Translations under genes and position numbers: made by a program
DNA from: Styela clava
Taxonomy: Eukaryota
DNA length: 64,000 nucleotides
Direction of reading: 5' to 3'
NCBI RefSeq assembly: GCF_964204865.1
Contig: NC_135260.1
Span: forward strand, 15,834,478 to 15,898,477
Shown: positions 1 to 50,204 of the stretch, piece after piece
Layout of the letters: each line of letters begins with the position of its first letter
Position numbering within the stretch: the first letter of the stretch is position 1
The notes under the pieces: generated by a model
The model's database searches: none
Seen by the model: only the letters and a program-made list of their open reading frames with translations
What the model was told of the DNA's origin: nothing

Positions 1-617
1 ATAAAAGTTCCTTCCGAAAATCTATCAGTCAATCCGATAAACACCTTTGTTTCTCCGATTCTCCTAAACGGTCAATATTTTGTTTTGAAAATGTGCAAAA
101 CTTCTGAATTATCTCAAATTACCAGAGTACCATATTCTAACTACTCAGAATGTCCTTGTTTATTAAGTGATAATTGGATTACTGAACTTCGTGAACAGCT
201 CCATGAAGAGATTGTTGTGTTGAAATTTGTCAACTACGCCTTGCATTTGAGTGTTAAAATATTTGGTTATCTTTAAACCTAAATCGGAGTTTACGAACCA
301 TGGTTCAAAATAGTATACCATCTCGCAATAAAAATAGAAAAACAAGCTTTTGTTCATGACCCAATATTACAGTCCATACAAATCATAAGTTTCACTGTCG
401 TGTCTGAGAATAGAACCGTTTTGGCTATAGAGATTTCTAAAAGTCTAAAATTCGCTGTTGGTATAATCGGTTTTCTTATTTCTTGAGTTTCGTGGTATTT
501 TACTTTTTTCTCAACTAACCTTATTAATAATCAATAATTGATTTTGTTCAACAGGAAATGAAAAAAGGAATACACGAAGGGAAAGCTAGCACCAAAATTG
601 TTTACTCACGATAAAAC

Positions 618-2013
618 AACCGGATCTCTTATTCCGTACATAGCAAGATGGCCTCCAAACTCACGGCATTCTTTCATTGTGTCGTCATAGTTAGCTCGTG
701 TTTTAGTTTTGAAATATTGATACCCATTTCCGCCATTCGTCCATCCTGGTCTTATGAGACCTACAAAAAAGCAACAATACTCATTACTATCAAATATTTA
801 TTCAATATAGACCAATATTATGGTAAACGACAGACTTTTGTTTGGAAATTCAGTTTTAGCGATGAATATTAGAATCGTGGATCAATCACCCTAAACAAGT
901 TACAAACCCATTAATCCATGCAAAAATAATTAGCGGTGTACTGGCAAAGCGTATTCTCCAGACGTTAAACGTTAAACGTCTTTCTTTCAATTGAGTTATT
1001 TATTATGAAATATATAAATTTGAAAAATTCAATTAAATATTTCAATTGAAATGAACAAAAACAGTGCTCTACAAACAATCAAATTTGTCTTTTCTAAAAC
1101 AAGAAAATCATATTCTCTCACACAGATCACAATCGTCGCCAGTTTTGTCAGCTGGACATTCACAAACAAAATTATCCGGTGTTTTATGACAAGTTCCAGC
1201 GCAGTTTGGACAATCTTGACAATTTAGAGCTCCGACAGCCACATCTGTTAAGTACAAATAGTATACACAATATGACTAATCAACACTTTTCAAGCGACAC
1301 TAATTCCCCTTTTTTTAATATGCGCTTGATTAGAGGCATTTCAGAATTCACTGAAAAGCACGATAGTATAATTATATTATGAGTGTATTTCAAAGTCCCA
1401 ATTTAACAATAATAAGATGACTTTAATTAAAGAAAAATGTTGGGGTTGTGTTGTGACCAAAAAATGATTGTCTCAAAAAGCTCACACTACGAATAACTGA
1501 TCGGAATAAAGAATTTCACATACAAAATGATTGACAAATTCCAACATTTGGTAGTTAATACAAACCAAATAGAGAATAACCCTCAGAAAAGAAATGAGAC
1601 AGAGCGTCTTAAAAGATGCTTCTCTGACCTTTGACACGAGAAAAAATCATTCTAAATGTTGCCAAATTTTGTCATTGCAAATGTGAGTCTAAGTAAAAGT
1701 TTGTGCGAAAGCTAAAAATTATGATCGCTATCTCATGTTGTTACAGGAGCAAACGAGGAAGTTTATGATGTGGAAACATGCCTACCCACAACAGGTGACG
1801 TACATCTACCAGTCCAAAGTATGCATAGTTAACTGATTGAACGTTCCACATCCAGGAATACATTTGACCACGTCCTTTTTTTTTCTTCTCACGTTGAGTC
1901 CTTTTTCATGCATTAATTTATAACACATATAATTGTTCGGAAAGAATCAAGTAAACTACAGACTTACCCAGAAATCCGCAAACAAAAATGAAGAGAAACG
2001 GCATGGGTGTCAT
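618..2013 (-). CDS. 5' portion of a secreted EGF/C-type-lectin-domain protein gene (paralog A of the gene at 6491-14545); the gene continues leftward out of the window
   Basis: Minus-strand exon 1 (1968-2013) is ATG + MTPMPFLFIFVCGFL, a signal peptide, with donor gtaagt in phase 1. Exon 2 (1122-1244) encodes VAVGALNCQDCPNCAGTCHKTPDNFVCECPADKTGDDCDLC with donor gtgaga. Exon 3 (618-760) encodes CLIRPGWTNGGNGYQYFKTKTRANYDDTMKECREFGGHLAMYGIRDP(V), the start of a CTLD. Exon lengths are 46/123/143 nt and phases are identical to exons 1-3 of gene B, and the protein segments align with it. A diverged candidate exon 4 lies around 395-490. Confidence 0.55.
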
Positions 2014-2703
2014 ACCGTGTGAAATTTGTTTCGTTGCCGCCAAGCTGGTGAATGCCAATAACAAACCAATACTCTGGTACAATTTAACTAAGAGTTAGGT
2101 CTCCTACAATGGAAAATGAGCTGATTTTCAATAATATTCGAATCAAATTACCCGGAAACTAAGTCATGTAAGATTTCAAGATATATCGTTCAAGTGTTGC
2201 ATCTGTTATATATGGTCCTTGCATAAATTGATTCAACAGTAAAATATTATATATTCAATAGCAATAGAACCAGTTGATGCCAGTATGTAAAATCATAGGA
2301 AACAAGTCTTACAATTATCCAATTCCGTTCTTTATCAGGACGAGCAGCATTTCCTTTTTGTGGAATTATTTCCTGCGATTATTGAATCACTCTTTCAGGT
2401 AACAAGGATGTGTCACATCAAACATAATAGCTACGCATAAAATCTTTCTCGAAATCTATGGTTACATATCATAGATTAAACAAAATATGTATTACTTGGA
2501 AGCTTTTTAACGCATCTCCTTCTGTGCTTAATTAATTTATATGGGTGCTCATTGTATGTATCCCCTATCTTTCTTTCTTCAATTAAACAAGCATATTAAC
2601 TAGTTATTTAACCTCAATTCATGTGATTTAATACGGGTATTGTCAATCTTCTTTTTACATCCGATTTTGTTTGGAATTGAAGAGGGGTGTTTCCTCTCCT
2701 GAC

Positions 2704-4439
2704 TAGGCTTGCACGTAATTGACAAAAATCAATTCCGTAATTACGGCCAAATCGATTACGTAATGACCCCGTAATTGCGATATTTTTTCACACATTTAAA
2801 CCTATCATAACAACCAATTGAATCCACTTCATTTTCGATTGGGACATCGAGTTTGGGTTTTCATATTCCTGGCAGTACTACACGCCGGTGACAGATGTTA
2901 AGACAAGAGTGAATTCAAATTAATTTTATTCTGGTTGTTATCTTTTGTGCTAGCTTTGATTTCCTTTATCACCTTCGCAAATTAACCGTCCCAATTTTAT
3001 GCGATCAATTTTATCATTACCGACACTGGTATACGGATATTTATGCAACGATAGTTGACTTTTTTAAAATGGTATTCAAAAAAATGTCGGGTTTCCAATT
3101 TATCAATGCCATGACGAGCGTATTCTCTCGTTTGATTATACTTGCTCTTGCCTCGCGACGAAGACTTGTTATTGCACCGTTTTCAACATTATTCGACTTT
3201 ACTACCTAGTCAGCATTTTATAATAATTATTGATGCCGACTTATTGACGTTATTCCGATTACCATGCTTCATTTTACATTAAATCCTGTCGCGGCCTAAA
3301 TGTTGTAACATTATTTGCAACAAATTTAGATCAAATATTAATTATTTGCGCATAATTTAAATACCGTACTTATATGATATGGCTTTTCCGAAAATACAAA
3401 TTTCTATCGCAAAAAAATGCATATTGTGACATTTATTTTGCACGCACGAAAAAATTAACTTATTTTTCTAACTCAAGTCGACGATCCTATCGGCCAAGAT
3501 TGACACAAATTTGGTCGAGTGTCTGTGGTTTTCAAGAATCAAAATAAGTTGCCGCAATTGGTAAAGACAGGTAATCATATTTGGCCGAAATATTGCGAGG
3601 CATTGTGGAAAATATATTGAGCAAGGACAAGTCCGGACTGATATAAAACGATAAAACCGGTAACAGAACATCAAGGTTTTGTAATTGAAAATGGTTCTCG
3701 CACAGAATAAACACACTGGCTCATACTTGATATTTGATAGTAGTTAAATTGAGAATATTGAACTGTTAAAAACAACGATCGTCGAAATTCTTAAATCTCG
3801 TTGCCTTGGTTTAATATAATCCAATGATCAGGACATTTTCAATTAAATACTGCATAAAGATAGTTATACATTAAACATTTAGGCTATAATTTAGCTTTTT
3901 TTTTAATTTCAATCATTGTGGTGGAGAAATCCCACTATTTAAATACGGTAACTATAAAAATAGAATAGGATTCTGGATTCGATTTAAGTATTCTAAAACA
4001 GTGCTTCCCAACCGCCGGTCCGCGGACCGTCAACGGTCCGCAAAGGATTTTTACCGGATCGCGGGAAATCCCGTCATATTGTTGTTTCTCTGCCATCTCA
4101 ATCGCTTTACCGATGCCGAAAAGACGAAGTTGCGTTGGTTCATTACGCAATTTCTCTTCCGTCGTCATATTGCTGTTTGATAAGCGCGACATTAATTATC
4201 ACGGTGACGTATTGGCAAGAGAGAGAAAAGTGAGAAAAACGGCTGCAAATACCGAAGCTTTAACTTCTTTTTAAACTTTCACTTTTTACAATCGACGGAA
4301 TTGACTGCTTTGAAGAGAGCTCGTTTCAATCGCGAAAGCGCTCGACCAATAATTACGACTTTACGTAATTCGTAACTTCCCTTCCGTAACTCGAAATAAT
4401 TCCGTAATTCCGTAAATCTGTAAATTACGTGCAAGCCTA
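2704..4439. mobile_element. Non-autonomous hAT-type element (about 1.7 kb) with a perfect 8-bp TSD
   Basis: TIR TAGGCTTGCACGTAATT at 2704-2720 and reverse-complemented at 4423-4439. An identical 8-bp direct duplication CTCCTGAC flanks it at 2696-2703 and 4440-4447. Subterminal ccgtaatt repeats. The interior (2960-3540) shares modules with the hAT-B element at 41280-42700. No long ORF. Confidence 0.75.
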
Positions 4440-5149
4440 CTCCTGACTGATTTGGGTGGCTAATAACACTCGATGCATGAAATAACCATATCGGCATAAT
4501 CTTTGTATTGTTAGTGAATAAGGTAGTAACCCTCGGCCATGACGTCCATGCTGTGAGCTGTACGCAAACAATAATTTTGCATACCCAGCAGCCTATTGTC
4601 TAAATTCCAACAAAGGTTTGTTAAATGGCAGAAGTGGCTTTCGAACCAAAAAAAAGAATAAAGCGGTTGATCAATTAATCTATCGATGGCGTTAAAATCT
4701 TGCGTTCTCTATTACAAACCTATAACGCTTTTATTTATTTTTTTTGCTGCTATTTTTATGTTTAAACGGGATGTAAATCTCTATTTCCGAGTCTAATCTT
4801 CCTACAAAATTTTTGACGCAAGAATGTATTTTCATCATTATTGATTGAAACTCGTTGCCGAAAGGTCGATAAATCTTATCATTTTAGTGATTGATGAAGA
4901 ATAAATTCATTACTGAGCATTTTTGTCATTGCTAAAATTTTTTTTTTTATATAATAAAAGGTTGGTTAGTTTGCCTTGCCATTCAAAGATCTCAGTCGCA
5001 AGCCCCCACATTGCCTAAGTTTAACCGTAAGCCTGAAAAAAATCCGTTTCAGGTGGAGGTAAGAGATACAGCATAAATGGTTTAATAATTATACTACAGT
5101 GCAGAAAAATTTACCGTTCTGAAGTAAAATTTGTGCACCCTTATTTAAC

Positions 5150-6035
5150 TAGTTACTTATCGATCTCGATCGGTAAGTATGTTGATCGGTATTTGTCTGT
5201 TTGTTACTTATCGATTTTAATCGACAAGTATGTTGATAGGTATTTGTCTGTTTGTTTGTCTGTCTGTCTGTTAGATGCACGCGATATCTAACGAAAGCGA
5301 GATTGAATCTGCTCCATATTTTGCATGTGCATTGATCATATGTTGGACCAGAAGCCCATTGATTTTGGATAAATTATGTCGTATAGTTAGCGAGTTATTA
5401 ATTAATTAGTGATGGGGCACAAGGTGTCACTATGGAGTAAGAGCGCTGTTTTGGGGGATCTCCTAACTTTCGATCGATAAGTCTTCGGTCTCTGACCGAT
5501 ATTCTCGTTTGTTACTTATAGATCTTGATCGGTAAGTATGTTGATAGGTATTTGTGTGTTTGTCTGCTAGTTACACGCGATATCTCACGAAAGCGAGGCT
5601 GAATCCGCTCCAAATTTTGCATGTGCATTCATCATATCTCGGATCAGAAGACTATTGATTTCGGATGAATTATGATGTATAATTAGCGAGTTATTAATTA
5701 ATTAGTGATGGTACACGCGGTGTCACTATTGAGTCAGAGCGAAAATATACGCCGCTAGATCGATAAGTCGGCGATCTCTGATCGCTATCTCGTTCGTATG
5801 TTACGCGATATCTCACGAAAGCGAGGTTGAATCGGTTCCAAATTTTGCATGTGCATTGATCATATCTCGGACCAGAAGCCTATTGCTTTTAGATGAATTA
5901 TGTCGTTTAATTAGTGAGTTATTAATTAATTAGTGATGGGGAACGCGGTGTTGCTTTTGAGTCAGAGCGAAGGAATCGAAACTGTAGATCGATAGGTCGG
6001 CGGTCTCCGATCGCTATCTAGTTTTATACTTGGGC
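5150..6035. repeat. Satellite-like tandem array, three copies of a 230-360 bp unit
   Basis: Unit starts recur at 5281, 5577 and 5806 (cgcgatatct(a/c)acgaaagcgagg.tgaatc.gctccaaattttgcatgtgcattgatcatatctcgg...ttaattaattagtgatgg..cacgcggtgtcactat.gagtcagagcg...gatcgataagtcggcg.tctc.gatcgctatct), about 85-90% identical, with variable internal deletions. Confidence 0.8.
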
Positions 6036-6490
6036 AATAGTTTTCTTTTCACAATATACCATTATATTTTTAATTTTTACAAAAAATTTCCTGTTGCTGT
6101 TTCCTGTCCACGATGTATGACGAATCATATTATATTTCTTCGAAATTTTTTACGTTCCAGTTAAAATGATTCATTATTTATAATTATTTTGATCTAAATA
6201 AGATTTCGAGTGCGTTGTAGAAAGAAGAAGGTGATCTTTAATTTATATCTTACGATCACCATCCTACATGTTTTTGTGACAAATTTGGCCAATAATTCGG
6301 AACGCTTTTATCGTAAGTTTTATTTATACCCCATACTTAATTGACAGAAGAATGAAATGGTGAATAAATATATAATTTTCAGCAGTGTTTTGTTAAAGTA
6401 TGTATATCCTGTCCGGCGTAAACTGCAATTAGGTTCAGCGTTACTCGTTATACAAGATCTTATATTTTTGCACTGAGGACGTTGATAATC

Positions 6491-9400
6491 ATGCAAGAAA
6501 AATTCGTCGTACTGCTGCTTTTTATTATTCTACGCGGTAAGTAACCAAGTAATAGTGAGTTAATCGCTTGCCAAATATCTGCAGAAGAAACGATTTTTTA
6601 AAATAGTTGAGTGTTTTATTATTTTTGTCCATATGCTTTTTACGTAGTAATGATGGCCCAGCTGCAATGTGGTGGAGCCTGTCCCGATTGTATTGGAACT
6701 TGCCATAATACTCCCAATGGAGAGATCTGCGAATGCGATGCCGACAAAACTGGAGATAACTGCGATTTGTGTAAGTAACCTTAATTAGAAAATTAAATTA
6801 AAAGTTTATCAGTAAACGCATTTTTATTTTTAATTTTGATGGATATCAGAAAAGCCCATGGTATTTCTAATAATATTGAAAAAGGAGTTTTTTTTTTATC
6901 TGTAAGTTGCTGAATAGTGTCCGAGCAGCAAAGAGAACTTAGTTAGAAATAGTCGGGTCGTATTTAATCCTTTAAATTACCTATTTTTTATAAAGTCAAT
7001 TTATCTTCAGTATTGGTGTAGTCTTACACTTGGTGCAATATATACTAGATTCTTCCGTAAAATCCGACACTGTCAAATCTGTACTATTCAAAAAGTTTTC
7101 CAATTTGCATAGAAACAAACACTCTTATACAACAAAGATACCAATAATACGTAGCATAATCTTCAAACTTTGATATACATTTGCATTGGAGGTTTAATAA
7201 GGACCGGTTGGTATGATGGCGGAAACGGATACCAGTATGCCAAGACAGACACTCGGTCGAATTATATTGGCACAGAGAAACAGTGCGAAAACTTTGGAGG
7301 TCATCTAGCGTTTCGTGGAATGCGGGATCCAAAAGTATATAAGTAAATATCATAAATGAATTTTTTTATTATTATTCGTGGTATAGCGTGACAGGTTTAT
7401 CCCCTAGGACTCAAGTGTGTGGTGCGACAGAGCTTCCTTAAAGTTGTGAACTGTCTGATAAAAACGAGTAGGCTAAATGCTTTTTCATGTTTATATATTA
7501 TGATCTTTAGTTAAAAACCTCCACTTCAGGCTAGATTAAAGATTGAATCTTGAAGAATATTTTTGAAATGAGTGTCTTGTCGCATCTAAAAGTAGAGTCC
7601 CACCCAAAATTTAAACTCCCAAAACCAAACTGGCTTTAGCGTGTTAGGACTATTTACTAAAAATGGTGGTAGACAGCAACGTATCAGGATGACTAAAGCC
7701 TGAAAGGTTCCTTACAAATCGTAGTTGTTGATACAACATAATTAATCATTTCAGTGAGATCATGAGAAGGTTTCCCAACTCATACATCGGTCTCAGAGCC
7801 AAAACAATTGATGGACTATTTGCATGGACTGATGGAGTAAGCTTTATCTATTATATATATTTACAAAAGCTGGTTTGACTTTTTTGCTGATTTGTATTTT
7901 CATTAAAAAAACGTCGGAGTAACTACTGGTATTACCACGAAATCTAATTAAACAAAAATCAGTATGATTGTATATACAAACCCAGAAAATCCGTCAAATT
8001 CTGTTTACGTCTGAGCACTACGAATTTGCCTGTTAATTGGTGGCATGACGACGGACGCTTGTTGCAATCGCCGATGTGGTGATTAAAAATCGGCAAACAA
8101 ACTGTGAATAGGCTTCAGTAGTAATAAATTTGAATTACTCTATGCTGGCCACACCTTGGTTTATTCTCAGATATCCCGATTTTTCTACATTCAAAGTAAT
8201 ATTACAGTATTTTGCAGGAAAGTTATGATCGCACTTTTACACCATGGATGGCGGGATATCCGCAGTCAATAAAAGATCATGATTGTGGTTTTATCCAATC
8301 TTCATCAGATGGAGTCCGGATACGAAATTATCCCTGTTCTATCATTGAGCATGGATTATGCGAAGTGCCGATTGGTTTGTTAACATTTGATATATTATAT
8401 ATATATATTTGTAATTCTAATAGCGTGTATGGTGGTATAATTTAGGAAACTACTAGCAAAGAAGATGTTGAGTATCAGTGTCCATTATCCCCTTACTTCT
8501 CTGTTCCACAGTAATTTTACGTCTCGGGCCTTTAATAACTACTGCCAGATGAATTAATAAAAGTTCAGCATCTTCATTTCTTTTGTTTCCAGGATTTCCA
8601 GCTCCAGTATTGAAATTTGATCCAAAAAATTTCTGTCAGTACTCCATCATTCCACATGCATTCCATGATGTTAGCGAACGACTTTGTGAAGAGCAAGGAG
8701 GACAATTAGCAACAAAAATAGTCAATGGCATCGATGGAAATCGTTTGAAGTAAAAAAAAAACTTATTTTCTTCTGCTTATTCTTAATGATAAACTTAAAA
8801 ACTAAATTTAAGATCCAATACAAAGCTTCAACAAAATGCTTTCAGTGTCTAATAATACAAGACGTTAAAAATTTCGAGAAATAAGATTTCGTTCTGTTCG
8901 AAACTTTTGCAAAAGCGTGTAATAAGTTTATCGCACTCCACAATTGTATCGATGTGGAATGCCATAACAAGCGTTTCTCGAACTTTTTTGCCCCGGAACA
9001 CCTACACTTTTTATCTCGCCTCGCGGAACACCAAGAAATTGGAAGGTAAAATTGATAAAAAAAAAAATGGATTTACTTTGTGCCTCAACCTGCACAACCG
9101 TCTTATCACGACATTTTTTGAGGCTTCCAGTTTTCAGCCAACAATTCGTTGAGAAGGATGGTTAACCAGAAAATTTAGCCTATGTTAAAATTAAAACGTT
9201 TCCTGTAAACTTGACAACTAAAAAATAAGGCCGACGGTTAACGATATCGAAACGTCATGATTTACCGACTGGCACGAGGCCTGTCAGCCTGTATGTCCAT
9301 CGCCAGTTGGGAGACAAACTTACGGCCCAGAGGCGCCGAAGTATGGACGAGATCGCCATGGCGATCAATTTAGTCGCAATTTCGTTCTCTGTCCCGCGGA

Positions 9401-12400
9401 ACACTCTAGAGAAGCTCGCGAAACAGCAGCGTTTCGCGGAACACAGTTTGAAATAAAAACAATAGTTGCCAAAAAGAAATAGATTTGACAGTTTATATAT
9501 TTGGGAAAAATAATCGATTTTTTACTATCATATTCGAGAATATCTTTGGTTCACTTACTTCAGCACGCAAATTATCAGTTCATATATATTTGTTCACCAG
9601 TACATTCTTACACTGAAGTTGTTATTTGATCAATGTTTGTATTTAGAAAAGTTATGACTTACTTTCATAATCTTGGTTATGGACTAGAATTGGGTGTTCA
9701 CGTCGGTTTCAGCAAAGATATATCAACATCGAAATTTCGATCTGACGGCGTGAGTATGAACTTTTAAAAAATTTCTCGACAGTAGGCTACTTCCATTTTT
9801 ATTTTCAACTACCGGAAATAGAGTCTCGTTAATACACTAATAAAAACAATCAAGATTAGTTTGGTAGTTCAGACATAGATGTTTCCATCTCGATTATTGA
9901 ATTGGTAGAAAGATATTCTTTGTTTTCTCAACCGTTACAGGGGAGAAATAGACAAAAGCTAAATTAACCAATAATATGTTGGGTATTTTGATGTTACCCG
10001 ATATCAGTTGTGTAATTTTTTTACAACACTCACAGTTGAATTTAACAACTTAGTTCTGCGTTTCGTAATCTTTTCTTTCCATTCTCCTTTTTTGGTTCTA
10101 TTTGCTCCAATCATTATATATCCATATTACTCCAAGCCAAACGTGACTGTATTGGTGAGCCACAAACTTATGAAATTGAATTTTAAGACGATTTTATCAG
10201 TTCCGAATTCTGCTGCTGAATGGAAACCTGGGAGTCCGAGTGAAAACACTCAAGAATTTCTGATTGCATTGATAACTCCAGATTGGTTTGATTACGCATG
10301 GATGGATGATAGCGATGGTTCTGAATTGTTACCTGGTTTGTGTGAATTTTGTGATGGCGCTGGTGAAACCTCAATAAATCGTACGTATTTATGATGAACT
10401 TATTTGTCATTGTATTATCTGATACTAATATTGGTCCTATTAATTATGCTGTTGAATAACCAACGACTATGTCATTTGGAAGTTCATTCTAGTGACTTTT
10501 CAGTCCTGCTTCCAGTACCAAATAAAGTAACTTCTCTGGTGGTCTATCGTGTTTATTCAAAAACCTAAACCACCATTTTTTCGCACAGAAAAATCATGTC
10601 GAAGTGGGAAGGTGTGCCCCGATCATAACATCTGTGTCGTAAATGAAGGAAGCTGTTTTGAAAAATGCATTTGTGCGGATGGGTATGCTTTGGTTCCGGG
10701 AAGTGAAGCAATCTGCGCTAGTGAGTGAGACAGTTATTGCTAGAATTAAATACTGGACACAAATTACTGATCTCCTGATTTAATTTATATTTCTGATGCA
10801 TCGCACTATAGAAAAATTTTGATTCAATAAATAAGATAAAGTTGTACATCCACTGATGCTGAAATATTTAAAACTTTATTCGAACAATTCAATAAAAACA
10901 GTTAGAAAATATTACAATGAAATATCCCTAATGATCGTCATTTACGTGTTCATATGCCGAATCGTATATTCAATTTACACTTCGCAGAAGACGTGTGCGC
11001 TGGACGTGATTGTGGTGATAACGCTGTGTGCTTTGTTGATAGCACTGGGTCTGTAGAATGCAAGTGCCAAAGAGGATATGTGCCCGTAGGAACAGATGCA
11101 GAGGGATGTACTGGTAAATATCTTGTATTCCAGAAATTTAGTTAAACATGCTCTGGAATTGTTTGAATGCTGCACTCCGTATAATAAATAACGGCTCTAT
11201 AAACATTACCGTTTTCGTAGCAAAATAAGGTGGGACAAGAAAATGGTGGGAAGTCTAATAAATGTGGAAATTGACTATATAAGTTCATAATAATTTTATA
11301 ATAGTTAAAGGCGTAAATGGTGGCATATTTCCCGATCAGCATCAAAAAGCTCATACTGTATGTATATCAACACATAAACTAGATAGCGATTGGAGACCGC
11401 CGACTTGTCGATCTTGCGGTTTCGATTCCTTCGACCTGACTCAATAGCAACACCGCGTGTCCCATCACCAATTAATTGGAGCAGATTCAACCTCGCTTTC
11501 GTGAGACATCGCGTAACATACGAAAGTGAAACAAACAAACAAACAAATACCTGTCAACATACTTACCGATCGAGATCGATAAGTCACAAACGCATATCAG
11601 CAGTCCGTTTTCAAACTAAATTTAAATTTCAACAATCACAGGTCCGTGTAATGGAATTACTTGTGGCACAGCAGCTAGTTGTGTGATTACCTATGAAAGT
11701 GGAGCTCCAACTGGAAGATGCGTTTGCAATGAAAACTACATACGGGATCTTAGAGTTGACGATGGATGTATACGTATGTCCCTTACAATACTGTATTTTG
11801 TGATTGGGAACTTAATATCACACATTTCAAATATGTCGAACGTGAAAATACAAAGGAATGACAGCAAATGTTTACCCTATGGTCCTCTATCTGCGTGTCC
11901 TGCCTGTACTATTGAGCGTATGTTAGCGGAGTATAACCCAAACCTGACTCATGATAGGTCAATAACCACACAATAGATTCTGATGCCAATGTAAAGTTGC
12001 ACAATCGAATGGTATGTAATGAAACCAAATTTCTAACTATTAAGAACGATATGACAAAAGACAAGTAACACTTTAGCGAGGGAAAATACGTCATCAACTC
12101 TTTTGCATAAAACGCTGCATGAAAATCCCATAAACGGAAATGAAATCAACCTTGTTTTAGGCAAATTACTCGCTACAATTCAGCTTTGACATGATTCTGA
12201 ACATTTCTTTTTTTTAGGTATTGGCTGGAAATGCTTAGGTTTGAGGTCATCAATTTCCCTATTATGAAAGTTATTTTTACATTAGCTCTATTCGTGAACG
12301 ATTCACTGGTAAACAGCCCTTTTTTATGTTTTTATCAATCCTCCCTTCAAACGAACCAGTTGAAAAATGAAATCCCCCTTTTGTATATATAACTCCAGCG

Positions 12401-14545
12401 AAGCGAAGTAAGTTTGTGGAGAGCTTTCTTAAGTTGCAAAATCAGCCACAAATGTTTGCATGAGCTTATACTGTTGGGTGCTCAGGATTACCCAATTGTG
12501 TGCAAAGCGATCAAATTAATCATGGCATTACCAGCAACAATCGATGAACGATCTTTTTCAAGTCGGGTCAAGTCATGGTTGCATTCGGCGGTGAAATCAG
12601 ACGACGTTTCAGATTTGAGTGTTCCGCATTACCATCGTGAATTTATCGTTATAATTTATCTCCTTACTTATCGTTAGATGTTAGTTTCTCCCCGCGACTG
12701 ACCTTGTTCGGTTTTGAAGGCGCGAGTGAGCGTCCCAATTTAAATACGTTCAACCAAATGCCTGGCGGACCCAAAAAAATTGAAAATCAAAACGATGCGA
12801 TAGACAGTTTATGAGCAATGATCGTTTTAACAACCCAACAATTATTGCGTATGTCACTAAAGTAGATCTGTAATATATATTACAAATACGGCGTTTCGTT
12901 CAGACACATCTCGTTCAGTTTGGAGGTATACCTGGGACCCAGAAAAACAACTTTCAGTGGTTCCACCGAGAGATGTGTTTCTGTAAACACATGTTTACAC
13001 CTACTATAAACAATATTTGTTAGCTACAGTAATTGGTTTCTCTGAATTATGTAAAATACCCCGTTTTCTCTGACAAAAGTTTCGTTCCAATTTGATTCCG
13101 AAACACTCTGTTCTTTGATTATCTCAACAGCTAACTGGACTTTAAGACACTTCTATGGATATTTATTGTGGTATTTGAACGATATAAACAAGATCACAGT
13201 CCCCAATTCTATTCTAACCGACAATAAATGGTGGCACTATACATTTACATCAGCGTTAGAATTATTAGATACAAACATTATATCGTGGCATCGCGTTAAT
13301 GTTCGCGTCCCGATTAAAATTTTCAAGTTCAAATGAGATCGGCTTTGTCGATAAGTTATTTGTATTCATTCGACGGTTAAAAAGATTTCCAGGTATTTTA
13401 TGTCAAACATTAATATGATATATACTATCACAAACAATACCTAAAAAAAATTTTGTTGAGTGTGCAAATGCGGGAAGAGGGAGACTGATATAAGCGGTCT
13501 GGAATAGTAAAAACAACAACTTTCAAAGCTTAAATATTAACTATTCTGAATCTCATCTTCAGTGGACGAATGCAGAAATGGTGGCACAGTTACATGTGGA
13601 GATAATGCATTATGCGCACTGACAGATCCCGCAACTATGATGCAAGGATGTGTGTGCGAAGAAGGATTTGGGTTCAGTTCTCCAGGCTCAAATGCTTGTA
13701 CGAGTAAGTACAAAACACTCTCAAGAACGCCCGTAATGATTCTTGTCTATATGCGCTTTTGGAATATGAGCGTCCGCACAATCTTTGCCACTAAGTTAAT
13801 GTATATAATATATAAAATCTAGAAACTGATTGTGATATCTTTTTAACCTCTGTTTGTTTGTATAAGTGCCGTTTACATATGTATATATGTATATATTGTG
13901 AAATAAATTATACATTCAGGTTGCCCTCAAACTTCCTACACATTTCCACTGAGATCTACAGCGGATTACGTCGTTGTCGATTACGATCCACCACAATTAT
14001 CACAAGTATCCTTGTGTATGGTGATATCGCCATCGACCACAGCAGGCGAAGGACTAAAAGGAGCTATTTTTAGTTATGCAACACCAGTTAACGCCAATTC
14101 TTTCACAATACATTTTGATACAACAACTAGACATACAATTTACTTCAATCATCCTTCAAGCACGCAGAGAAGCATTAATATCGAAGTGACCCAAGCAACT
14201 CATATATGCTTCCTCATTTCTAAGCCAGACCAATATTTAAAAATGTACAAGGATGGGTCTTTGTTTGCTACACGTACATACACCGACACCGACCCTCTTC
14301 CAGATCTAACAGGATCGTTAATAATAGGACAAGAACAGGACAGTGTCGGAAGTGGATTTTCAACCAATCAAGCATTTGAAGGCCAAGTAGAGAACCTTAT
14401 GTTATGGGAGCGGATATTAAGCACCACAGAAATCTTAGATATGGCAGGTGACAAATGCGTGTGCTCTGGAGACTTTGATCTTGCCCTAACATCTGACGTT
14501 GTAACAGTGAACGGAAATGTTGTTACTTCTTATCCTACTTGTTAA
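6491..14545 (+). CDS. Secreted multi-domain protein: signal peptide, Cys-rich EGF-like module, two C-type lectin-like domains, four EGF-like domains, C-terminal pentraxin domain (13 coding exons, about 720 aa)
   Basis: Exons (phases checked): 6491-6536 MQEKFVVLLLFIILR signal peptide; 6648-6770 MMAQLQCGGACPDCIGTCHNTPNGEICECDADKTGDNCDLC; 7192-7334, 7759-7836 and 8218-8374 form CTLD 1 (GWYDGGNGYQY..CENFGGHLA / YIGLRAKTIDGLFAWTDG / WMAGYPQSIKDHDCGF..CSIIEHGLCEV); 8593-8749, 9647-9749 and 10188-10389 form CTLD 2 (FCQYSIIPH..CEEQGGQLA / LELGVHVGFSKDISTSKFRSDG / EWKPGSPSENTQE..AWMDDSDGSELLPGLCEF); EGF-like exons 10589-10720, 10988-11113, 11642-11773 and 13563-13703, all phase 1-1, the last a DEC cbEGF-like; final exon 13920-14545 is a pentraxin domain (FSYATPVNANSFTIHF ... 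LIIGQEQDSVGSGFSTNQAFEGQVENLMLWERILSTTEI) with stop TAA at 14543. Every junction has a GT donor and AG acceptor with consistent phase. Confidence 0.8.
11381..11590 (-). repeat. Inverted, internally deleted copy of the 5150-6035 satellite unit inside intron 10 of gene B
   Basis: agatagcgattggagaccgccgacttgtcgatc ... cgcgtaacatacgaaagtgaaacaaacaaac ... cttaccgatcgagatcgataagt is the reverse complement of the unit at 5150-6035 (gatcgataggtcggcggtctccgatcgctatct; acttatcgatctcgatcggtaag), lacking about 100 bp of the middle. Confidence 0.7.
12414..12677 (+). pseudogene. Remnant of a hAT transposase C-terminal dimerization domain within an intron of gene B
   Basis: The ORF encodes ..ILLGAQDYPIVCKAIKLIMALPATIDERSFSSRVKSWLHSAV.., matching the hAT family dimerization motif (iPaTsa.sERsFS....l...R.rL). 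No upstream transposase body, so it is a fragment. Confidence 0.4.
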
Positions 14546-15844
14546 CTTGACAAAAATGTGCATTCAAATTTACATACGAAATAAACAGCAATAATTTAAT
14601 ATGACAACCTTTGGCCCGTGCCTATTGATATATTATTTTTTTCGAATTGAATTAGGAATCAGAGTGCTTTGATTCGAATATTTCCGAATCTGATGCTATT
14701 ACAATATTATATTATCGTTACTTTATTCAATAATCACATCAACGTTTCCCAGTCGGATAGTGATTCCCTCCAAGGTGGAATTATACTTTGTTTTTCCTGT
14801 AATACTACCAATATTATTTCGTTTAATATTCGTTTTATTGCTATAACACTTATATCTTCACAAATTGATATACAGTTATACACTCAAATTATTAATGCCA
14901 GTTAGATGTGCTTTAGCACCGTTTTTGCCATGGTTTTGAAAGAAGCAATGATTATAACAGAAACATTTGTAGAAACCTATGTTTTTGATAAGAAATAACG
15001 CAACGGTGCTGTCATTAAAATAATATTATATTGGTACCTCTACAAAGCGTATATATCAGGGGTATTAAAAATCTCTATCAGCGGTAATGCAGCAGCAGAA
15101 GTCTCACTGATATAGAAAAATAAAAGTAACCAAGTCTCTGTCGGCCTTATATTTTCCGGAATAGCGAATCTGTATGTACATGTTTGAAAGGTTTATTATT
15201 ATTTTTTTCTGCTTTGAAAGTAGCAAACCTTTCTTTTTAATTTTGGTCGGCACGCGGAAGAATTTTGTCGGTAAAATTAGCCGATTTTGGCACGCGAGCC
15301 GAAAAGGGTTGCCCGCCCCTGGTATATATGATAAAATATGCTTGGAACTTTTTAACATTTACGTTTTCTAAGTTGAGCAAAGCCATTGGTTCCTCTGAAA
15401 GTACGACCCATACGAAATATAACAAACCCATATAAAATATAACCGCCCTATAAGTGTTACAACCTGTGAACTCATGAAAATATCGACTGTTTGGGTGAAT
15501 TCCAATACAATAATATTTTGGGATTTTACGTGATTATCGGAGTCTTAATCGACTTCAGAAGAATTTTCACATTTATTCCGGAGAACGGAAAACCTAACTG
15601 GTAAAAAAATTTTGAATTCACTTTTGGTTTAGTGTAAAATATTTATCAGCGAAAATGGTATCAAATTACAGACCCAGTTGCCCTTACTGTACATTGATAG
15701 GTGCTTACCTATGGCGGGTAACCGATTCCATTATAACATCATAATATGATGTGTGGCTCTGTTTTATGTAAGTAATGTATCTTGCTTATACAATTAGCGC
15801 TTGAGCGTTTTCCTAACACTTGTCTCTGAGAACCGAGCTCAGAT

Positions 15845-22971: not shown

Positions 22972-25900
22972 TAGGGCTGGGAATTTCAAGGAAAACACTT
23001 CAACCGTTAACCGGGTAAAATTAACCGGTTTACCGCCGCGTAACGTTCGACCATGGTTATTCAGTTAACCATGGTTTGACGTAATAATTATAATTTCAGC
23101 TTGTTACGTCACAAAGGTTAGAAGCAATTTCGCGTGTTCTTATCCCGGTATCGCTCAAAATTGTTCACGAATCGAGATAGTTTCATGATTCCTCTGCTGC
23201 AAAAGATAGGCAGCGGAGTTCGGGCATGTGGAAATATTTTAGAAAACCTAATTCCGTTGTTAAACGTCATTTATGTGACAAATTTTTAGTGTTCGATGTG
23301 CAAATTCTACTTCGAGAAAAATATCATAAAGAAAAACGGCATCAACTGCACACTTGTTGTATGACATTGAATATCCGATTTTGAACTGAAATCGTGAACA
23401 ATATATTTCGAAATCGACCGAAAACTGATTCTGAATTTATCATTGTAAATTTTTATTATCAGCAACCTTGGTACTTCCATTATTTTTCACATTCATTGAT
23501 TCCTTACCCACACAGTTAGTAATATTTTTTTGAATTAAACGCCGCAAGAGATAAATTTGCGATGACGTAATCATATTTGACGATATTGTACGGTATGAAG
23601 ATGATTTGTACCTGCGATGTAAGTTAACGGTTAAAATAAATCATAACCGTCAGTGGCGGCGCGTGGTCATTTTGACAACCGGGGCAAGCTACTGCGGGAC
23701 CAAGTCACTCCCATCTACGGGGACAGGATGAGCGCTGTAAGTTCTCCCATCATTTTATGAGTATAAAAACCATTCCATCGGTAACAACCAATCGGCAAAA
23801 GCGACAATTTTTAACGATAAGAAAGTGTCTTTAAAACCGGTCCAAGTCAAGGGATTAATAAATATAGACATAGTTTATTTTGAAACCTCTTTCAAAGGGA
23901 AAGGCAATATTTACCCAGATGAATACAATGACATATTAACAGAAACTTCGGGAAAGCAGACAAAACCTAAAATAAGGTTTAAACGTTACTATGAAGAAAG
24001 GAAAGTTAATGCAAAGATAAGGACATGCGTCGCTCACTCATAGATATATATGCTGCTAGACTTCTACTGCTTGAACATATATGCAACACGCCGCGGTTTC
24101 TTGGAAGCAAAATGCTCAATAACGCGCTGATTAAAGTCATGCCTCCCAGAAATAACGTCTCTGTGAATGGATAAAACAGCCAAGGAATTTAATCTATCTT
24201 GCTTCATTGTGTTTCTGAGATACGTTTTAATACGCTTCAGCGTGCTGAATGTTCGCTCTGCGTCGGCGGAAGAAATAGGCGTCGTCAAAATGATGTCCAG
24301 AAATTTTGCAGACGCCGCAAAGGTAGTTACTAGAGTGTTATCTATGAGGAACCCATAGAGCGCGCAAGTTGATGTGATGTTCAAAAAAGTTTGATTGGTG
24401 TATATACATCGCAATTCATTTTCCAATTTACCCACGTTTATCATGGGGTAAAATTTGGAGACAGTAGCCAACAAATGGATGGGAAATTGACGTGCAAATT
24501 TTGAAAAATTTTTGGGGTTCATCAAAGAGAACGCGGCAAGGTGTTCAGTGCGCAGACGATCGCCTATTTGATTCACCAGAATGTCACAGCATTCCTTTGC
24601 AGACAAAATCAAACGCTGCGTTGTTTGCCCGCGGCGTAAAGAAGCACTCCATGTGTCGTCGTATTTTATTGTTTCCCGGATACGAGATACAGCATCGCAG
24701 AAGTCTGAAATACACGACTGCACAGACGCGCCACCCATTAGCCTTGACTGCAATGCGCCGTATAATACATCCACGTGATAGAATATTGTGGAGAAAAAAT
24801 GAAAACTCACCATCTTCTAGCAGACGCTTTAGACCTGCCGCCTCCCTCACAGAGCGTTCGTCCCAAACCGGAGAGCTCTGAATGCCATTGAAACACTCAA
24901 TGAGCTCAGACTTAATTTTGGACACGCCCTGCACCACGCCTGATTGGAAGTTCCAACGTGTTGGTGCACAAGTTGGGAGACGGCGGCTACATATCTGGCG
25001 AAGGAAGTCAGAGCGCTTCGGCGAAACGGAAAAAAATGAAGAAAACCCCGAAACATTTGCAAAAAATATACGGATGAGAGGGGTATCAAGACACATATTT
25101 TTTAATAACGAGGTTAAATTGGTGTGCATAACAATGTAAAAAATGCGCATGAGGAAAATCTTCTTTTATATAAACTTGAACACCATGTTTCGACCCACTC
25201 ATGACTGCCGCGCCGTCATAAGTTTGAGCTATCAATTTTGACTTCGCGTTGTAAGGCTGTAACACTTCTTTCAGTACAGCCGATATCCCGCAAGCCGTGC
25301 GATCAACGATTGGTACATAGCTGTGAAATCTCTCGGTAGGTTTACCATCTTTCACAAACCGAAAAATCACAGCCAGTTGGGAAACGCACGTGATGTCAGT
25401 TGTCTCGTCAGACTGAATCGAAAGGAACTGGCAATTCTCAATTTCCAGAGCCAAATGTTGTAAATAAATTTTATACATTGAGTCGAGCAAATCATTTTGG
25501 ATATCCTTAGATGTCCCTTTCGAAACAGTTGCGGCATCAAGATGATCTCCCAATACTGTATCTAGGGATGCGGTGTATTCCACCATATCCAAAAATACCC
25601 CTCTATTAGAAGAGCCAGCCCGTTCATCGTGCCCACGGAGGGACAGCTCGTGACAACCAATGAACTTCAAAACATCTATCAATCGACCGAGAACATGGCG
25701 GTTTTTCTCGACGTTTTGGTTGTGCCGACGAATAGAAACCGCGCTGCAATATTAACATTTCCGAATGTTCGGTATTTTACTGCATTGTCCAGATGCTCCA
25801 TAGAAGATTGATGATCCTTGGCACGCTCGGAAAGATGTTTAAGATCTCTAAAACCAAATTTACACCAACGTGAGTCACGGGCGGTAGCAAAAAGTAGGCA

Positions 25901-46643: not shown

Positions 46644-46853
46644 TACATGTCCAACATTCTAAAACCAAGCAGAATGCTTGGCAACCCCCATATCAATTTG
46701 GTAAGTCATGACTATATAAAATTCAATTGTGTAGTTAGAGAAAAGGTACATTAGACTCGAAGCCATTTGAAAAATTTCACAGTAAATACAAACAGCTGTG
46801 GAAAAAAAAATCCCTTTAATGGAACCTGTCATATAAAAAAGTATAAATCATAC

Positions 46854-49800: not shown

Positions 49801-50204
49801 AATCGAAGACCAATTATTTTGCATGTCGGATCTATAAATCCAAGTATACCAGTTTCAGGTGGCCGACCTACAGGATCAGTTACCAATCCACTTGCTTTTG
49901 TTTTGACTTGACAGCCTTGTTCACCGGCGCAATATTCCAAAATCGACGCATTATATCGTTCAGTTAGTACAAACAATAGATCTTTTGGTTCACCTGGAGG
50001 TCTAAACAACTTCAACACAGCAATTCTTCCATAAATATTCATTTCTGTAATTGGACGAAGTCCTTCACTGGTGACTGTATATATTTCCAAACGTGTGCTT
50101 TTAGCAATAAGTAAATTCATGTCATCAGGACTTGTGAAGTTACCAGTTATACAAAAGTGAACTGCACTCGGCTTGTGAGCTGTGACGACATAGTTGAACG
50201 ACAT
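46854..50204 (-). CDS. DDB1: DNA damage-binding protein 1 (CUL4 adaptor; three WD40 beta-propellers), main exon coding residues 1-1117
   Basis: A continuous 1118-codon minus-strand ORF. N-terminus [42 protein letters not shown] against human [42 protein letters not shown]. Colinear over the whole length (..[29 protein letters not shown]). The ORF's own last codon and stop are intronic: a donor gtatga follows CAA at 46854-46856. Confidence 0.95.

What the first reader, a model, noticed from the sequence alone, without database searches (positions are those of the whole stretch)
618..14545. Head-to-head paralog pair of secreted genes with an unusual CTLD-CTLD-EGF4-pentraxin architecture
Gene B (6491-14545) reconstructs to signal peptide + Cys-rich module + two complete C-type lectin-like domains (each split over 3 exons) + four EGF-like modules (all phase 1-1, the last a DEC calcium-binding type) + a C-terminal pentraxin domain (LIIGQEQDSVGSGFSTNQAFEGQVENLMLWERILS). 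A second gene on the opposite strand (1968 down to 618 and beyond) has exons 1-3 of identical lengths (46/123/143 nt) and phases, with recognisably similar sequence. This is an inverted duplication that includes the 5' ends, with starts about 4.5 kb apart. Pentraxin combined with CTLD and EGF recalls SVEP1/polydom-like and neuronal-pentraxin-like pattern-recognition proteins, but this exact domain order is not one I recognise. The pentraxin exon lacks the canonical HxCxS/TWxS signature (it has THICFLIS), so it is a divergent member.
Basis: partly seen in the sequence, partly recalled or inferred. Interest (0 to 1): 0.7.

Follow-up and report, generated by a model that had tools for sequence, protein, structure and literature searches.

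The report
Sea-squirt lectin–EGF–pentraxin gene pair
Two diverged sister genes of the sea squirt Styela clava sit head to head and each encodes a secreted protein built from two C-type-lectin-like domains, a string of EGF modules and a pentraxin domain; this is a real but unstudied lineage-specific mix of ordinary domains, and the public annotation truncates one of the genes.

Summary
The window is Styela clava (tunicate) DNA. Gene B (6491-14545, +) assembles into 13 GT-AG exons and one 722-aa ORF: signal peptide, 8-Cys EGF-like module, CTLD1, CTLD2, four EGF modules, C-terminal pentraxin. Gene A (2013 down to 1, -) is RefSeq LOC120346894, 904 aa. It has the same layout with eight EGFs, is 45% identical to B end to end, and runs off the window start.

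Corrections:
- Exon 3 is 151 nt in both genes, not 143.
- Pfam finds Pentaxin firmly (70 bits). It finds Lectin_C only for CTLD1, and only when that domain is scanned alone.
- CTLD2 needed profile and structure evidence.
- A calcium-binding type for the last EGF is not supported.

RefSeq's only recovered model for gene B is a 230-aa "jeltraxin-like" fragment that starts inside EGF4.

Further copies with this layout lie on another S. clava chromosome-scale contig. No other species in a 1.84-billion-protein library has this N-terminal module joined to a pentraxin. Amphioxus has a different CTLD/pentraxin mosaic.

The protein is most likely a secreted, calcium-dependent, multivalent recognition or matrix protein; this function is inferred, not shown. 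It is a new variant of known kinds and of modest interest.

The parts
6491..6536 (+). Gene B exon 1: start codon and most of the signal peptide (MQEKFVVLLLFIILR)
   Evidence: This is the only strongly hydrophobic 19-residue window in the protein.
6648..6770 (+). Gene B exon 2 (123 nt, phase 1-1): end of the signal peptide plus an 8-Cys EGF-like module (CGGACPDCIGTCHNTPNGEICECDADKTGDNCDLC)
   Evidence: No Pfam hit, so the EGF-like reading rests on cysteine spacing only. It is 51% identical to gene A exon 2.
7192..8374 (+). Gene B exons 3-5 (7192-7342, 7755-7836, 8218-8374): CTLD1, residues about 57-187
   Evidence: Lectin_C 25.3 bits when scanned alone. PDB profile hits to mincle and DEC-205 at 1e-13 to 1e-15. 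Four canonical cysteines are present.
8593..10380 (+). Gene B exons 6-8 (8593-8749, 9647-9749, 10188-10380): divergent CTLD2, residues about 187-338. The C2 and C3 cysteines are both replaced (F and G).
   Evidence: hhalign against CTLD1 gives 95.7%, E 1e-8. TC14 lectin 1BYF at E 1.6e-4. Same exon phases as CTLD1. Fold model of the paralog.
10589..13703 (+). Gene B exons 9-12 (10589-10720, 10988-11113, 11642-11773, 13563-13703): four EGF-like modules, one per exon, all phase 1-1
   Evidence: Four CxC motifs. Weak EGF_3, Pvs28 and MSP1 EGF hits. No further EGF relics in intron 11.
13920..14545 (+). Gene B exon 13: pentraxin domain plus a short Cys-containing tail; stop at 14543-14545
   Evidence: Pentaxin 70 bits. 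NP1 at 1e-16, plus PTX3, CRP and SAP. Identical to RefSeq 'jeltraxin-like'.
14580..14585 (+). AATAAA, a likely polyadenylation signal 35 nt after the stop codon
   Evidence: Found by sequence only; not tested.
1968..2013 (-). Gene A (LOC120346894) exon 1, 46 nt: start codon and signal peptide
   Evidence: identical to P0001.
1122..1244 (-). Gene A exon 2, 123 nt: Cys-rich EGF-like module
610..760 (-). Gene A exon 3, 151 nt: first third of CTLD1
   Evidence: 100% identical to P0001 residues 58-107.
1..63 (-). Gene A exon 4, cut by the window start (RIGETKVFIGLTDRFSEGTF...)
2014..6490 (.). Shared 4.5-kb divergent intergenic region. It holds a 1.74-kb element bounded by 24-nt inverted repeats (2701-4442) and three tandem repeat copies of about 230-300 nt (5148-6024).
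   Evidence: No ORF of 90 aa or more and no Rfam family.

Best explanation
Identity of the genes. These are two old, inverted-duplicate paralogs in the tunicate Styela clava. Each encodes a secreted, soluble mosaic protein: signal peptide, 8-Cys EGF-like cap, CTLD1, CTLD2, a stalk of EGF modules (4 in gene B, 8 in gene A) and a C-terminal pentraxin domain. Gene B is one gene of 13 exons. The RefSeq 'jeltraxin-like' entry is its truncated 3' end.

Proposed mechanism (inferred, not shown). The protein is a multivalent extracellular recognition molecule.
- The pentraxin domain keeps its intradomain cysteine pair and most calcium ligands. In CRP numbering N61, E138, D140 and Q150 are kept, D60 is Ala and E147 is Ser. 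Neuronal pentraxin 1 also has Ala at the D60 position. The domain therefore probably binds ligand through bound calcium.
- CTLD1 lacks the EPN/QPD and WND sugar motifs, so it is probably a non-canonical binding or packing domain.
- CTLD2 resembles the styelid galactose lectin TC14. Acidic residues occupy three of TC14's four calcium-ligand positions, so it may retain a calcium or sugar site.
- The EGF stalk sets the distance between the two recognition ends and differs between paralogs.

The most likely setting is humoral or mucosal defence, or tunic or matrix organisation.
For: Shown here:
- Complete ORF with canonical splice sites.
- Gene A exons in the window are identical to RefSeq XP_039272614.1.
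- A and B are 45% identical over their full length.
- Pentaxin at 70 bits, with NP1, PTX3, CRP and SAP matches.
- CTLD1 evidence. CTLD2 evidence.
- AlphaFold model of the CTLD pair at pLDDT 86.5, matching Endo180, DEC-205 and mannose receptor tandem CTLDs and mincle.
- The only hydrophobic segment is N-terminal, so there is no transmembrane helix.
- P0176 equals residues 493-722 of the gene B model. It begins at an internal Met-Met between the third and fourth cysteines of EGF4 and has no signal peptide.
- Precedent for split models: the paralog LOC120339454 was first annotated as 197-aa and 644-aa pieces and later merged to 901 aa.
- Paralogs P0002 and P0152 have the same layout in single RefSeq models.
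- Only exons 2 and 3 keep nucleotide similarity (67-68%) and introns keep none, so the duplication is old.

Inferred: calcium-ligand conservation from the CRP alignment, and the TC14 ligand positions from PMC3293724 mapped onto the alignment.
Against: - No transcript evidence joins exons 1-11 to exons 12-13 of gene B. The only public model recovered covers the last two exons.
- No exact match to either full-length splice model was found in the 15-billion-protein collection.
- Pfam misses CTLD2 entirely, and misses CTLD1 on the full-length protein.
- The PROSITE pentraxin signature is not met.
- No binding, expression or localisation data exist (one search found no paper naming these loci).
- The canonical sugar-binding motifs are absent from CTLD1.
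- The calcium ligand corresponding to TC14 Glu106 (Glu86 in the mature protein) is Ser in CTLD2.
Confidence: 0.6

Rival explanations
1. Gene B is not one gene. Only the short pentraxin product (RefSeq 'jeltraxin-like', 230 aa) is expressed from an internal start. The upstream CTLD and EGF exons are then a separate gene or a decaying remnant.
For: RefSeq holds a 230-aa model limited to part of exon 12 plus exon 13. No full-length gene B protein was found by exact look-up. Intron 11 is long, at 1.79 kb.
Against: The 230-aa model starts between the third and fourth cysteines of an EGF module. That leaves an incomplete EGF and gives no signal peptide for an extracellular domain. All 11 upstream exons are intact, in phase and have canonical splice sites. 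Exon 11 ends and exon 12 starts in phase 1. Three paralogs carry the whole layout in single models. A paralog was split in the same way in an earlier annotation and later merged.
Confidence: 0.12
2. The proteins are structural or adhesive extracellular-matrix components of the tunic, basement membrane or endostyle mucus, functionally nearer to SVEP1/polydom or fibulin-like proteins than to immune recognition molecules.
For: They carry long EGF arrays of the EGF_3/matrilin-like type. CTLD1 lacks sugar-binding motifs. RefSeq names one paralog 'SVEP1-like'. A gene called SVEP1 is enriched in the anterior S. clava endostyle (PMC9953650), but its identity with this family was not checked.
Against: There are no vWA, Sushi, HYR or other matrix-assembly domains. 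The pentraxin calcium site is largely kept, which is typical of ligand-binding pentraxins. Nothing here tells matrix binding apart from microbial binding.
Confidence: 0.3
3. The proteins are signalling or organiser factors. They would act like the styelid TC14-3 lectin, a calcium-dependent cytostatic factor, or like neuronal pentraxins that cluster receptors.
For: The closest solved relative of CTLD2 is TC14, and TC14-3 acts as a cytostatic signal (PMC3293724). The closest solved pentraxins are neuronal pentraxins 1 and 2.
Against: Similarity to these relatives is remote (TC14 E 1.6e-4; the NP1 alignment shows roughly 30% identity by eye). There is no coiled-coil N-terminus as in neuronal pentraxins. 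There are no expression data.
Confidence: 0.08

Closest known systems
Styela clava paralogs XP_039263183.1 ('SVEP1-like', 888 aa), LOC120339454 (901 aa) and LOC120339170 (669 aa)
   Same: Same overall layout: Cys-rich cap, CTLD1, CTLD2, EGF array, pentraxin. They are 41% identical to gene B, and the linker motifs (GGNGYQY, GLCE.P.., CKSGKVC, EGSCFE) are conserved.
   Different: They have eight EGF modules against four in gene B. They lie on a different chromosome-scale contig (23.5 Mb against 22.07 Mb). All are uncharacterised predictions.
Short and long pentraxins (CRP, SAP, PTX3, neuronal pentraxins 1 and 2, Limulus SAP-like)
   Same: Same C-terminal domain family (Pfam 70 bits; PDB E 1e-16 to 3e-8). 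The cysteine pair, the GQEQD calcium loop and Q150 are conserved.
   Different: The signature HxCx[ST]Wx[ST] is absent (HICFLISK). The N-terminal part is CTLDs and EGFs rather than nothing (CRP, SAP) or a coiled coil (PTX3, neuronal pentraxins).
SVEP1/polydom
   Same: A secreted mosaic protein that combines EGF modules with one pentraxin domain.
   Different: SVEP1 is defined by vWFA, Sushi/CCP, HYR and an ephrin-receptor-like motif, with a central pentraxin (PMC12549020). None of these was found here, and this pentraxin is C-terminal.
Polyandrocarpa misakiensis lectin TC14 (PDB 1BYF), a styelid C-type lectin
   Same: It is the best solved match to CTLD2. CTLD2 shares an xPS...DD motif pattern in place of QPD...WND.
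   Different: TC14 is a single-domain 14-kDa dimeric lectin. CTLD2 has Ser where TC14 has its key calcium ligand Glu106, and in gene B CTLD2 has lost the C2-C3 disulfide.
Mannose-receptor family tandem CTLDs (MRC1, Endo180, DEC-205, PLA2R)
   Same: The predicted CTLD pair superposes on their consecutive CTLDs (E about 1e-14, about 280 aligned columns).
   Different: Those are type I membrane receptors with CysR and FNII domains and 8-10 CTLDs. These proteins have no transmembrane segment, only two CTLDs, and add EGFs and a pentraxin.
Branchiostoma lanceolatum 'MRC1' CAH1255098.1 (CTLD, pentraxin, four CTLDs, MAM)
   Same: Another invertebrate-chordate mosaic that joins CTLDs to a pentraxin.
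   Different: Different domain order, no EGF stalk and an added MAM domain. It is probably an independent domain shuffle.

Membership tests
Pentraxin family (PF00354) | Match to the family HMM above the curated cutoff | tested here: met
   70 bits against a cutoff of 25, residues 521-689. Gene A scores 69.3 bits.
Pentraxin family (PF00354) | PROSITE signature H-x-C-x-[ST]-W-x-[ST] | tested here: not met
   Gene B has HICFLISK aligned to CRP HICTSWES. Gene A has HFCWVLST.
Pentraxin family (PF00354) | Conserved intradomain cysteine pair (CRP Cys36 and Cys97) | tested here: met
   Both cysteines align: SLCMVIS with TVCLHF, and HIC with HIC. They are invariant in A, B and P0002.
Pentraxin family (PF00354) | Calcium-ligand residues (CRP D60, N61, E138, D140, E147, Q150) | tested here: inconclusive
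   N61, E138, D140 and Q150 are kept in gene B. D60 is Ala, as in neuronal pentraxin 1, and E147 is Ser.
Pentraxin family (PF00354) | Cyclic pentameric or oligomeric assembly | not testable with these tools
   Needs biochemistry or multimer modelling.
C-type lectin-like domain superfamily (PF00059), CTLD1 | HMM match, four canonical cysteines and a WIGL-like motif | tested here: met
   25.3 bits against a cutoff of 22.6 when scanned alone, although absent from the full-length scan. PDB profile hits at 1e-13 to 1e-15. YIGL motif present and C88, C157, C174, C182 present. Model matches mincle at TM 0.83 (modelled on gene A).
C-type lectin-like domain superfamily (PF00059), CTLD2 | HMM match or CTLD fold | tested here: met
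   No Pfam hit. hhalign to CTLD1 gives 95.7%, E 1e-8. TC14 at E 1.6e-4. The model of gene A's pair aligns over about 280 columns to tandem CTLDs, with CTLD2 pLDDT of 70-91. Gene B keeps only C1 and C4.
Calcium-dependent carbohydrate-recognition CTLDs (true C-type lectins) | EPN or QPD motif together with WND | tested here: not met
   CTLD1 has YPQ (B) or QPS (A), and RNY or YDN. CTLD2 has SPS with MDD or IDD, which is TC14-like but lacks the Glu.
SVEP1/polydom | vWFA, Sushi/CCP, HYR, EGF and a central pentraxin | tested here: not met
   No vWA, Sushi or HYR in Pfam scans of A, B, P0002 or P0152. Family definition taken from PMC12549020.
Calcium-binding EGF (EGF_CA) for the fourth EGF | D/N-x-D/N-E/Q-C start together with a C3-x-D/N-x4-Y/F-x-C4 consensus, or a Pfam EGF_CA match | tested here: not met
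   EGF_CA gives only E 0.044 (14.5 bits against a cutoff of 27), and that match is on EGF2. EGF4 starts LDEC, but the stretch between C3 and C4 is ALTDPATMMQG.
Selectins and group XIV CTLD proteins (thrombomodulin, CD93) | CTLD followed by EGF and a transmembrane anchor | tested here: not met
   No hydrophobic segment apart from the signal peptide. The C-terminus is a pentraxin.

The most novel reading that the evidence does not exclude
This is a styelid-specific family of humoral chimeric lectins. It places two unrelated calcium-dependent recognition folds, a TC14-type CTLD and a pentraxin, at opposite ends of an EGF stalk whose length varies between paralogs. Such a molecule could bridge microbial or matrix glycans to pentraxin partners such as C1q-like proteins. 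That would be a tunicate-invented opsonin class with no vertebrate counterpart.
Probability: 0.2. Interest if true: 0.5.

Novelty: new variant of a known kind. Interest (0 to 1): 0.3.

Why it matters
- Tunicates are the sister group of vertebrates, and they rebuilt much of their extracellular recognition toolkit by domain shuffling.
- This family adds a CTLD-CTLD-EGF(n)-pentraxin layout for which I found no published description. In the libraries searched it occurs only in Styela clava.
- Practically, the finding corrects a public gene model. The 230-aa 'jeltraxin-like' entry is the tail of a 722-aa protein.
- It also shows that RefSeq names for the family (SVEP1-like, Notch-like, lectin-like, jeltraxin-like) are misleading. 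That matters for anyone reading S. clava transcriptomes.
- It does not overturn anything known about pentraxins or C-type lectins.

Tried and rejected
- Word-indexed homolog search. It returned only P0001 for the full gene B. For a fragment of P0001 it returned neither P0001 itself nor P0002. I therefore did not treat absence in that tool as evidence. The exhaustive HMMER scan was used instead.
- Contig look-ups for P0001, P0161 and P0176 found nothing on record. Neighbouring RefSeq gene calls therefore could not be read.
- Single-sequence AlphaFold of the CTLD pair failed (pLDDT 33) and was discarded.
- An alignment of gene B exon fragments was scattered by MAFFT and was discarded.
- SVEP1, selectin or thrombomodulin, and neuronal-pentraxin membership were considered and rejected on domain content.
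- I looked for hidden or decayed EGF exons in intron 11 of gene B, to explain 4 EGFs against 8. None was found.
- No Rfam family and no sizeable ORF lie in the intergenic region.
- Literature searches for the locus names found nothing.


Full report
**What the window is.** The sequence is AT-rich (about 35% GC) and intron-bearing. The minus-strand exons at 2013-1968, 1244-1122, 760-610 and 63-1 translate exactly to the first ~127 residues of RefSeq XP_039272614.1, 'uncharacterized protein LOC120346894 [Styela clava]', 904 aa. The window is therefore Styela clava (leathery sea squirt) genomic DNA. The collection places this protein on a 22.07-Mb contig.

**Gene B.** I rebuilt the plus-strand gene by hand and checked it by script.
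- Thirteen exons, every intron GT-AG, give one 2169-nt ORF of 722 aa ending at TAA 14543-14545.
Each CTLD occupies three exons with phases 1-2, 2-0 and 0-1. Each EGF occupies one phase 1-1 exon.
- One correction concerns exon 3. It is 151 nt (7192-7342), not 143. The equivalent exon of gene A is also 151 nt (760-610), and that is fixed by the RefSeq protein sequence ...DPVVLS|RIGE.
- AATAAA lies 35 nt after the stop.

**Domain tests.**
- *Pentraxin.* It is firm. Pfam gives 70 bits against a cutoff of 25. The best solved relatives are neuronal pentraxin 1 (1e-16) and 2, Limulus SAP-like pentraxin, PTX3, CRP and SAP.
- *CTLD1.* On the whole protein Pfam reported no Lectin_C at E<=1. Scanned alone, CTLD1 passes (25.3 bits against 22.6). 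A two-sequence profile of CTLD1 hits mincle and DEC-205 at 1e-13 to 1e-15.
- *CTLD2 by sequence.* It never hits Pfam. It matches the CTLD1 profile by hhalign (95.7%, E 1e-8). A three-paralog profile hits one solved protein significantly, the styelid C-type lectin TC14 (1BYF, E 1.6e-4). Adding the equivalent domains of two other tunicate proteins gives many CTLD hits.
- *CTLD2 by structure.* Single-sequence AlphaFold was useless (pLDDT 33). With a 41-sequence alignment, the CTLD pair of gene A modelled at mean pLDDT 86.5, with CTLD2 blocks at 70-91. Foldseek aligned about 280 columns to the consecutive CTLDs of Endo180, DEC-205, mannose receptor and PLA2R (E about 1e-14). It aligned single CTLDs such as mincle at target-normalised TM 0.83 and rmsd 2.1-2.3 Å. 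The model is of gene A, which is 45-49% identical to gene B in this region.
- *EGF modules.* They are clear from the cysteine pattern, with four CxC motifs in B and eight in A and P0002. Pfam scores them mostly below cutoffs. A calcium-binding type for EGF4 is not supported.
- *N-terminal module.* The 8-Cys module has no Pfam match. Its spacing is EGF-like, which is my inference.

**Secretion.** The only hydrophobic 19-residue windows in A and B are at the N-terminus, so there is no membrane anchor. No signal-peptide predictor was available. Calling this segment a signal peptide is an inference from MQEK-FVVLLLFIIL-RVMMA.

**Paralogy.**
- A and B align end to end at 45% identity, with the cysteines and linker motifs conserved. 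A has four extra EGFs.
- At the nucleotide level only exons 2 and 3 are alignable (67-68%). Nothing in introns or upstream aligns. The inverted duplication is therefore old.
- The ATGs are 4478 nt apart. The spacer contains a 1.74-kb element bounded by 24-nt inverted repeats and three tandem repeat units. The original spacing was probably shorter, which is an inference.

**Public annotation of gene B.** A profile of the pentraxin domains retrieved 'jeltraxin-like [Styela clava]', 230 aa, on the same 22.07-Mb contig. It equals residues 493-722 of my model exactly.
- It confirms the exon 12-13 junction.
- It starts at an internal Met-Met between the third and fourth cysteines of EGF4 and has no signal peptide.
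- Neither of two full-length splice variants is in the 15-billion-protein collection.
- There is a precedent for split models. The paralog LOC120339454 was first released as a 197-aa 'lectin-like' piece and a 644-aa 'Notch-like' piece, and was later merged to 901 aa.

I conclude that the 230-aa entry is a truncated model. No transcript data were available to prove this.

**Distribution.** I ran an exhaustive phmmer of gene A's N-terminal 314 residues against 1.84 billion representatives.
- Only two proteins scored below 1e-30, both from S. clava: gene A itself and XP_039263183.1.
- The next hits (1e-27 and weaker) are multi-CTLD proteins from Ciona, sea urchin, molluscs and others.
- The same CTLD-pair module, with the motif GW.DGGNGYQY and the linker GLCE.PIG.P, occurs in an S. 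clava astacin-EGF protein and at the N-terminus of a Phallusia peroxidase.
- Among the best 150 hits, only an amphioxus protein (CTLD, pentraxin, four CTLDs, MAM) also carries a pentraxin, and it has a different order.
- Ciona, Clavelina and Phallusia proteins are present among the hits, so their lack of this layout is meaningful. Other styelids are probably not represented, so 'Styela-specific' is provisional.

**Function (inferred).**
- *Pentraxin.* The alignment to CRP shows the cysteine pair, N61, the GQEQD loop (E138, D140) and Q150 conserved. D60 is Ala and E147 is Ser. Neuronal pentraxin 1 also has Ala at the D60 position. The PROSITE signature is not met (HICFLISK).
- *CTLD1.* It lacks EPN/QPD and WND.
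- *CTLD2.* It aligns to TC14, whose calcium ligands are Glu106, Asn109, Asp127 and Asp128 (PMC3293724). CTLD2 has Ser, Glu or Asp, Asp and Asp at those positions. In gene B the C2 and C3 cysteines of CTLD2 are both replaced. That is the pattern expected when a disulfide is lost as a pair.

I therefore propose a secreted, calcium-dependent, two-ended recognition or matrix protein with a variable EGF spacer. An immune role and a matrix role cannot be told apart with these data.

**Comparison with known families.** It is a genuine pentraxin-domain and CTLD-domain protein. It is not SVEP1/polydom, because it has no vWA, Sushi or HYR. It is also not a neuronal or long pentraxin, a selectin, a group XIV CTLD protein or a mannose-receptor family member. 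I found no paper describing this layout or these loci.

**Verdict.** This is a real, correctly read gene pair. It is a lineage-specific mosaic of common extracellular domains. It is uncharacterised, and one copy is under-annotated. It is useful for tunicate immunology and matrix catalogues and for fixing a gene model, but it would not surprise a specialist.

Noticed in passing
window 13563-14545 (gene B exons 12-13): RefSeq 'jeltraxin-like [Styela clava]' (230 aa) equals residues 493-722 of the 722-aa gene B model. It starts at an internal Met-Met inside an EGF module and has no signal peptide, so it looks like a 5'-truncated gene model.
   Followed up: yes
gene B and gene A proteins (window 6491-14545; P0001): Neither mature protein has a single N-x-S/T glycosylation sequon. 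Shuffling gives an expectation of 4.9 and 6.8 sequons (P = 0.003 and 0.0004). The paralogs P0002 and P0152 have 3 and 1. Sequon avoidance in a secreted protein is unexplained.
   Followed up: partly
window 10188-10380 (gene B exon 8): CTLD2 of gene B has lost both the C2 and C3 cysteines (to F and G). Gene A and P0002 keep them. This is a paired loss of one disulfide.
   Followed up: partly
window 10340-10352 and 10589-10720: An extra cysteine follows CTLD2 (GLCEFC), and there is a seventh cysteine in EGF1 (EGSCFE). Both are conserved in all paralogs. This suggests an inter-domain disulfide between CTLD2 and EGF1.
   Followed up: no
window 2701-4442: A 1.74-kb segment bounded by 24-nt terminal inverted repeats (92% complementary) lies in the intergenic spacer. 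It has no long ORF and is probably a non-autonomous DNA transposon.
   Followed up: partly
window 5148-6024 and 11376-11592: Three tandem copies of a repeat of about 230-300 nt lie upstream of gene B. An inverted copy, about 90% identical, lies inside intron 10 of gene B. It is likely a SINE- or MITE-like interspersed repeat.
   Followed up: partly
window 46848-50204 (-): An uninterrupted 1118-aa ORF carries the RSE1/DDB1/CPSF1 beta-propellers and the CPSF_A region. It is a DDB1-like gene with no introns across this stretch.
   Followed up: partly
window 28305-29876 (+): A 523-aa intronless ORF of the major facilitator superfamily (MFS_1, E 9e-52). By eye it looks like a sugar-phosphate exchanger.
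   Followed up: partly
window 24064-25682 (-): Broken ORFs with a hAT dimerisation domain and DUF4371 lie in the GC-richer 24-28 kb stretch. This is a decayed hAT-type transposase.
   Followed up: partly
P0177 (S. clava LOC120340922, not in the window): A 337-aa protein with a signal peptide, a short collagen repeat, a coiled coil and a pentraxin domain. It is a collagen-tailed long pentraxin on another S. clava contig.
   Followed up: partly
P0004 (S. clava LOC120331708) and P0012 (Phallusia mammillata 'myeloperoxidase'): The same tandem CTLD-pair module is reused in an astacin-EGF protein and at the N-terminus of an animal haem peroxidase. The pair appears to move between genes as a unit in tunicates.
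   Followed up: partly
P0001 compared with P0161 (gene A protein, RefSeq versions .1 and .2): The two RefSeq versions of LOC120346894 differ by at least 10 substitutions from residue 251 onward. This implies different haplotypes or assemblies. The part of the gene in the window cannot show which version it matches.
   Followed up: no
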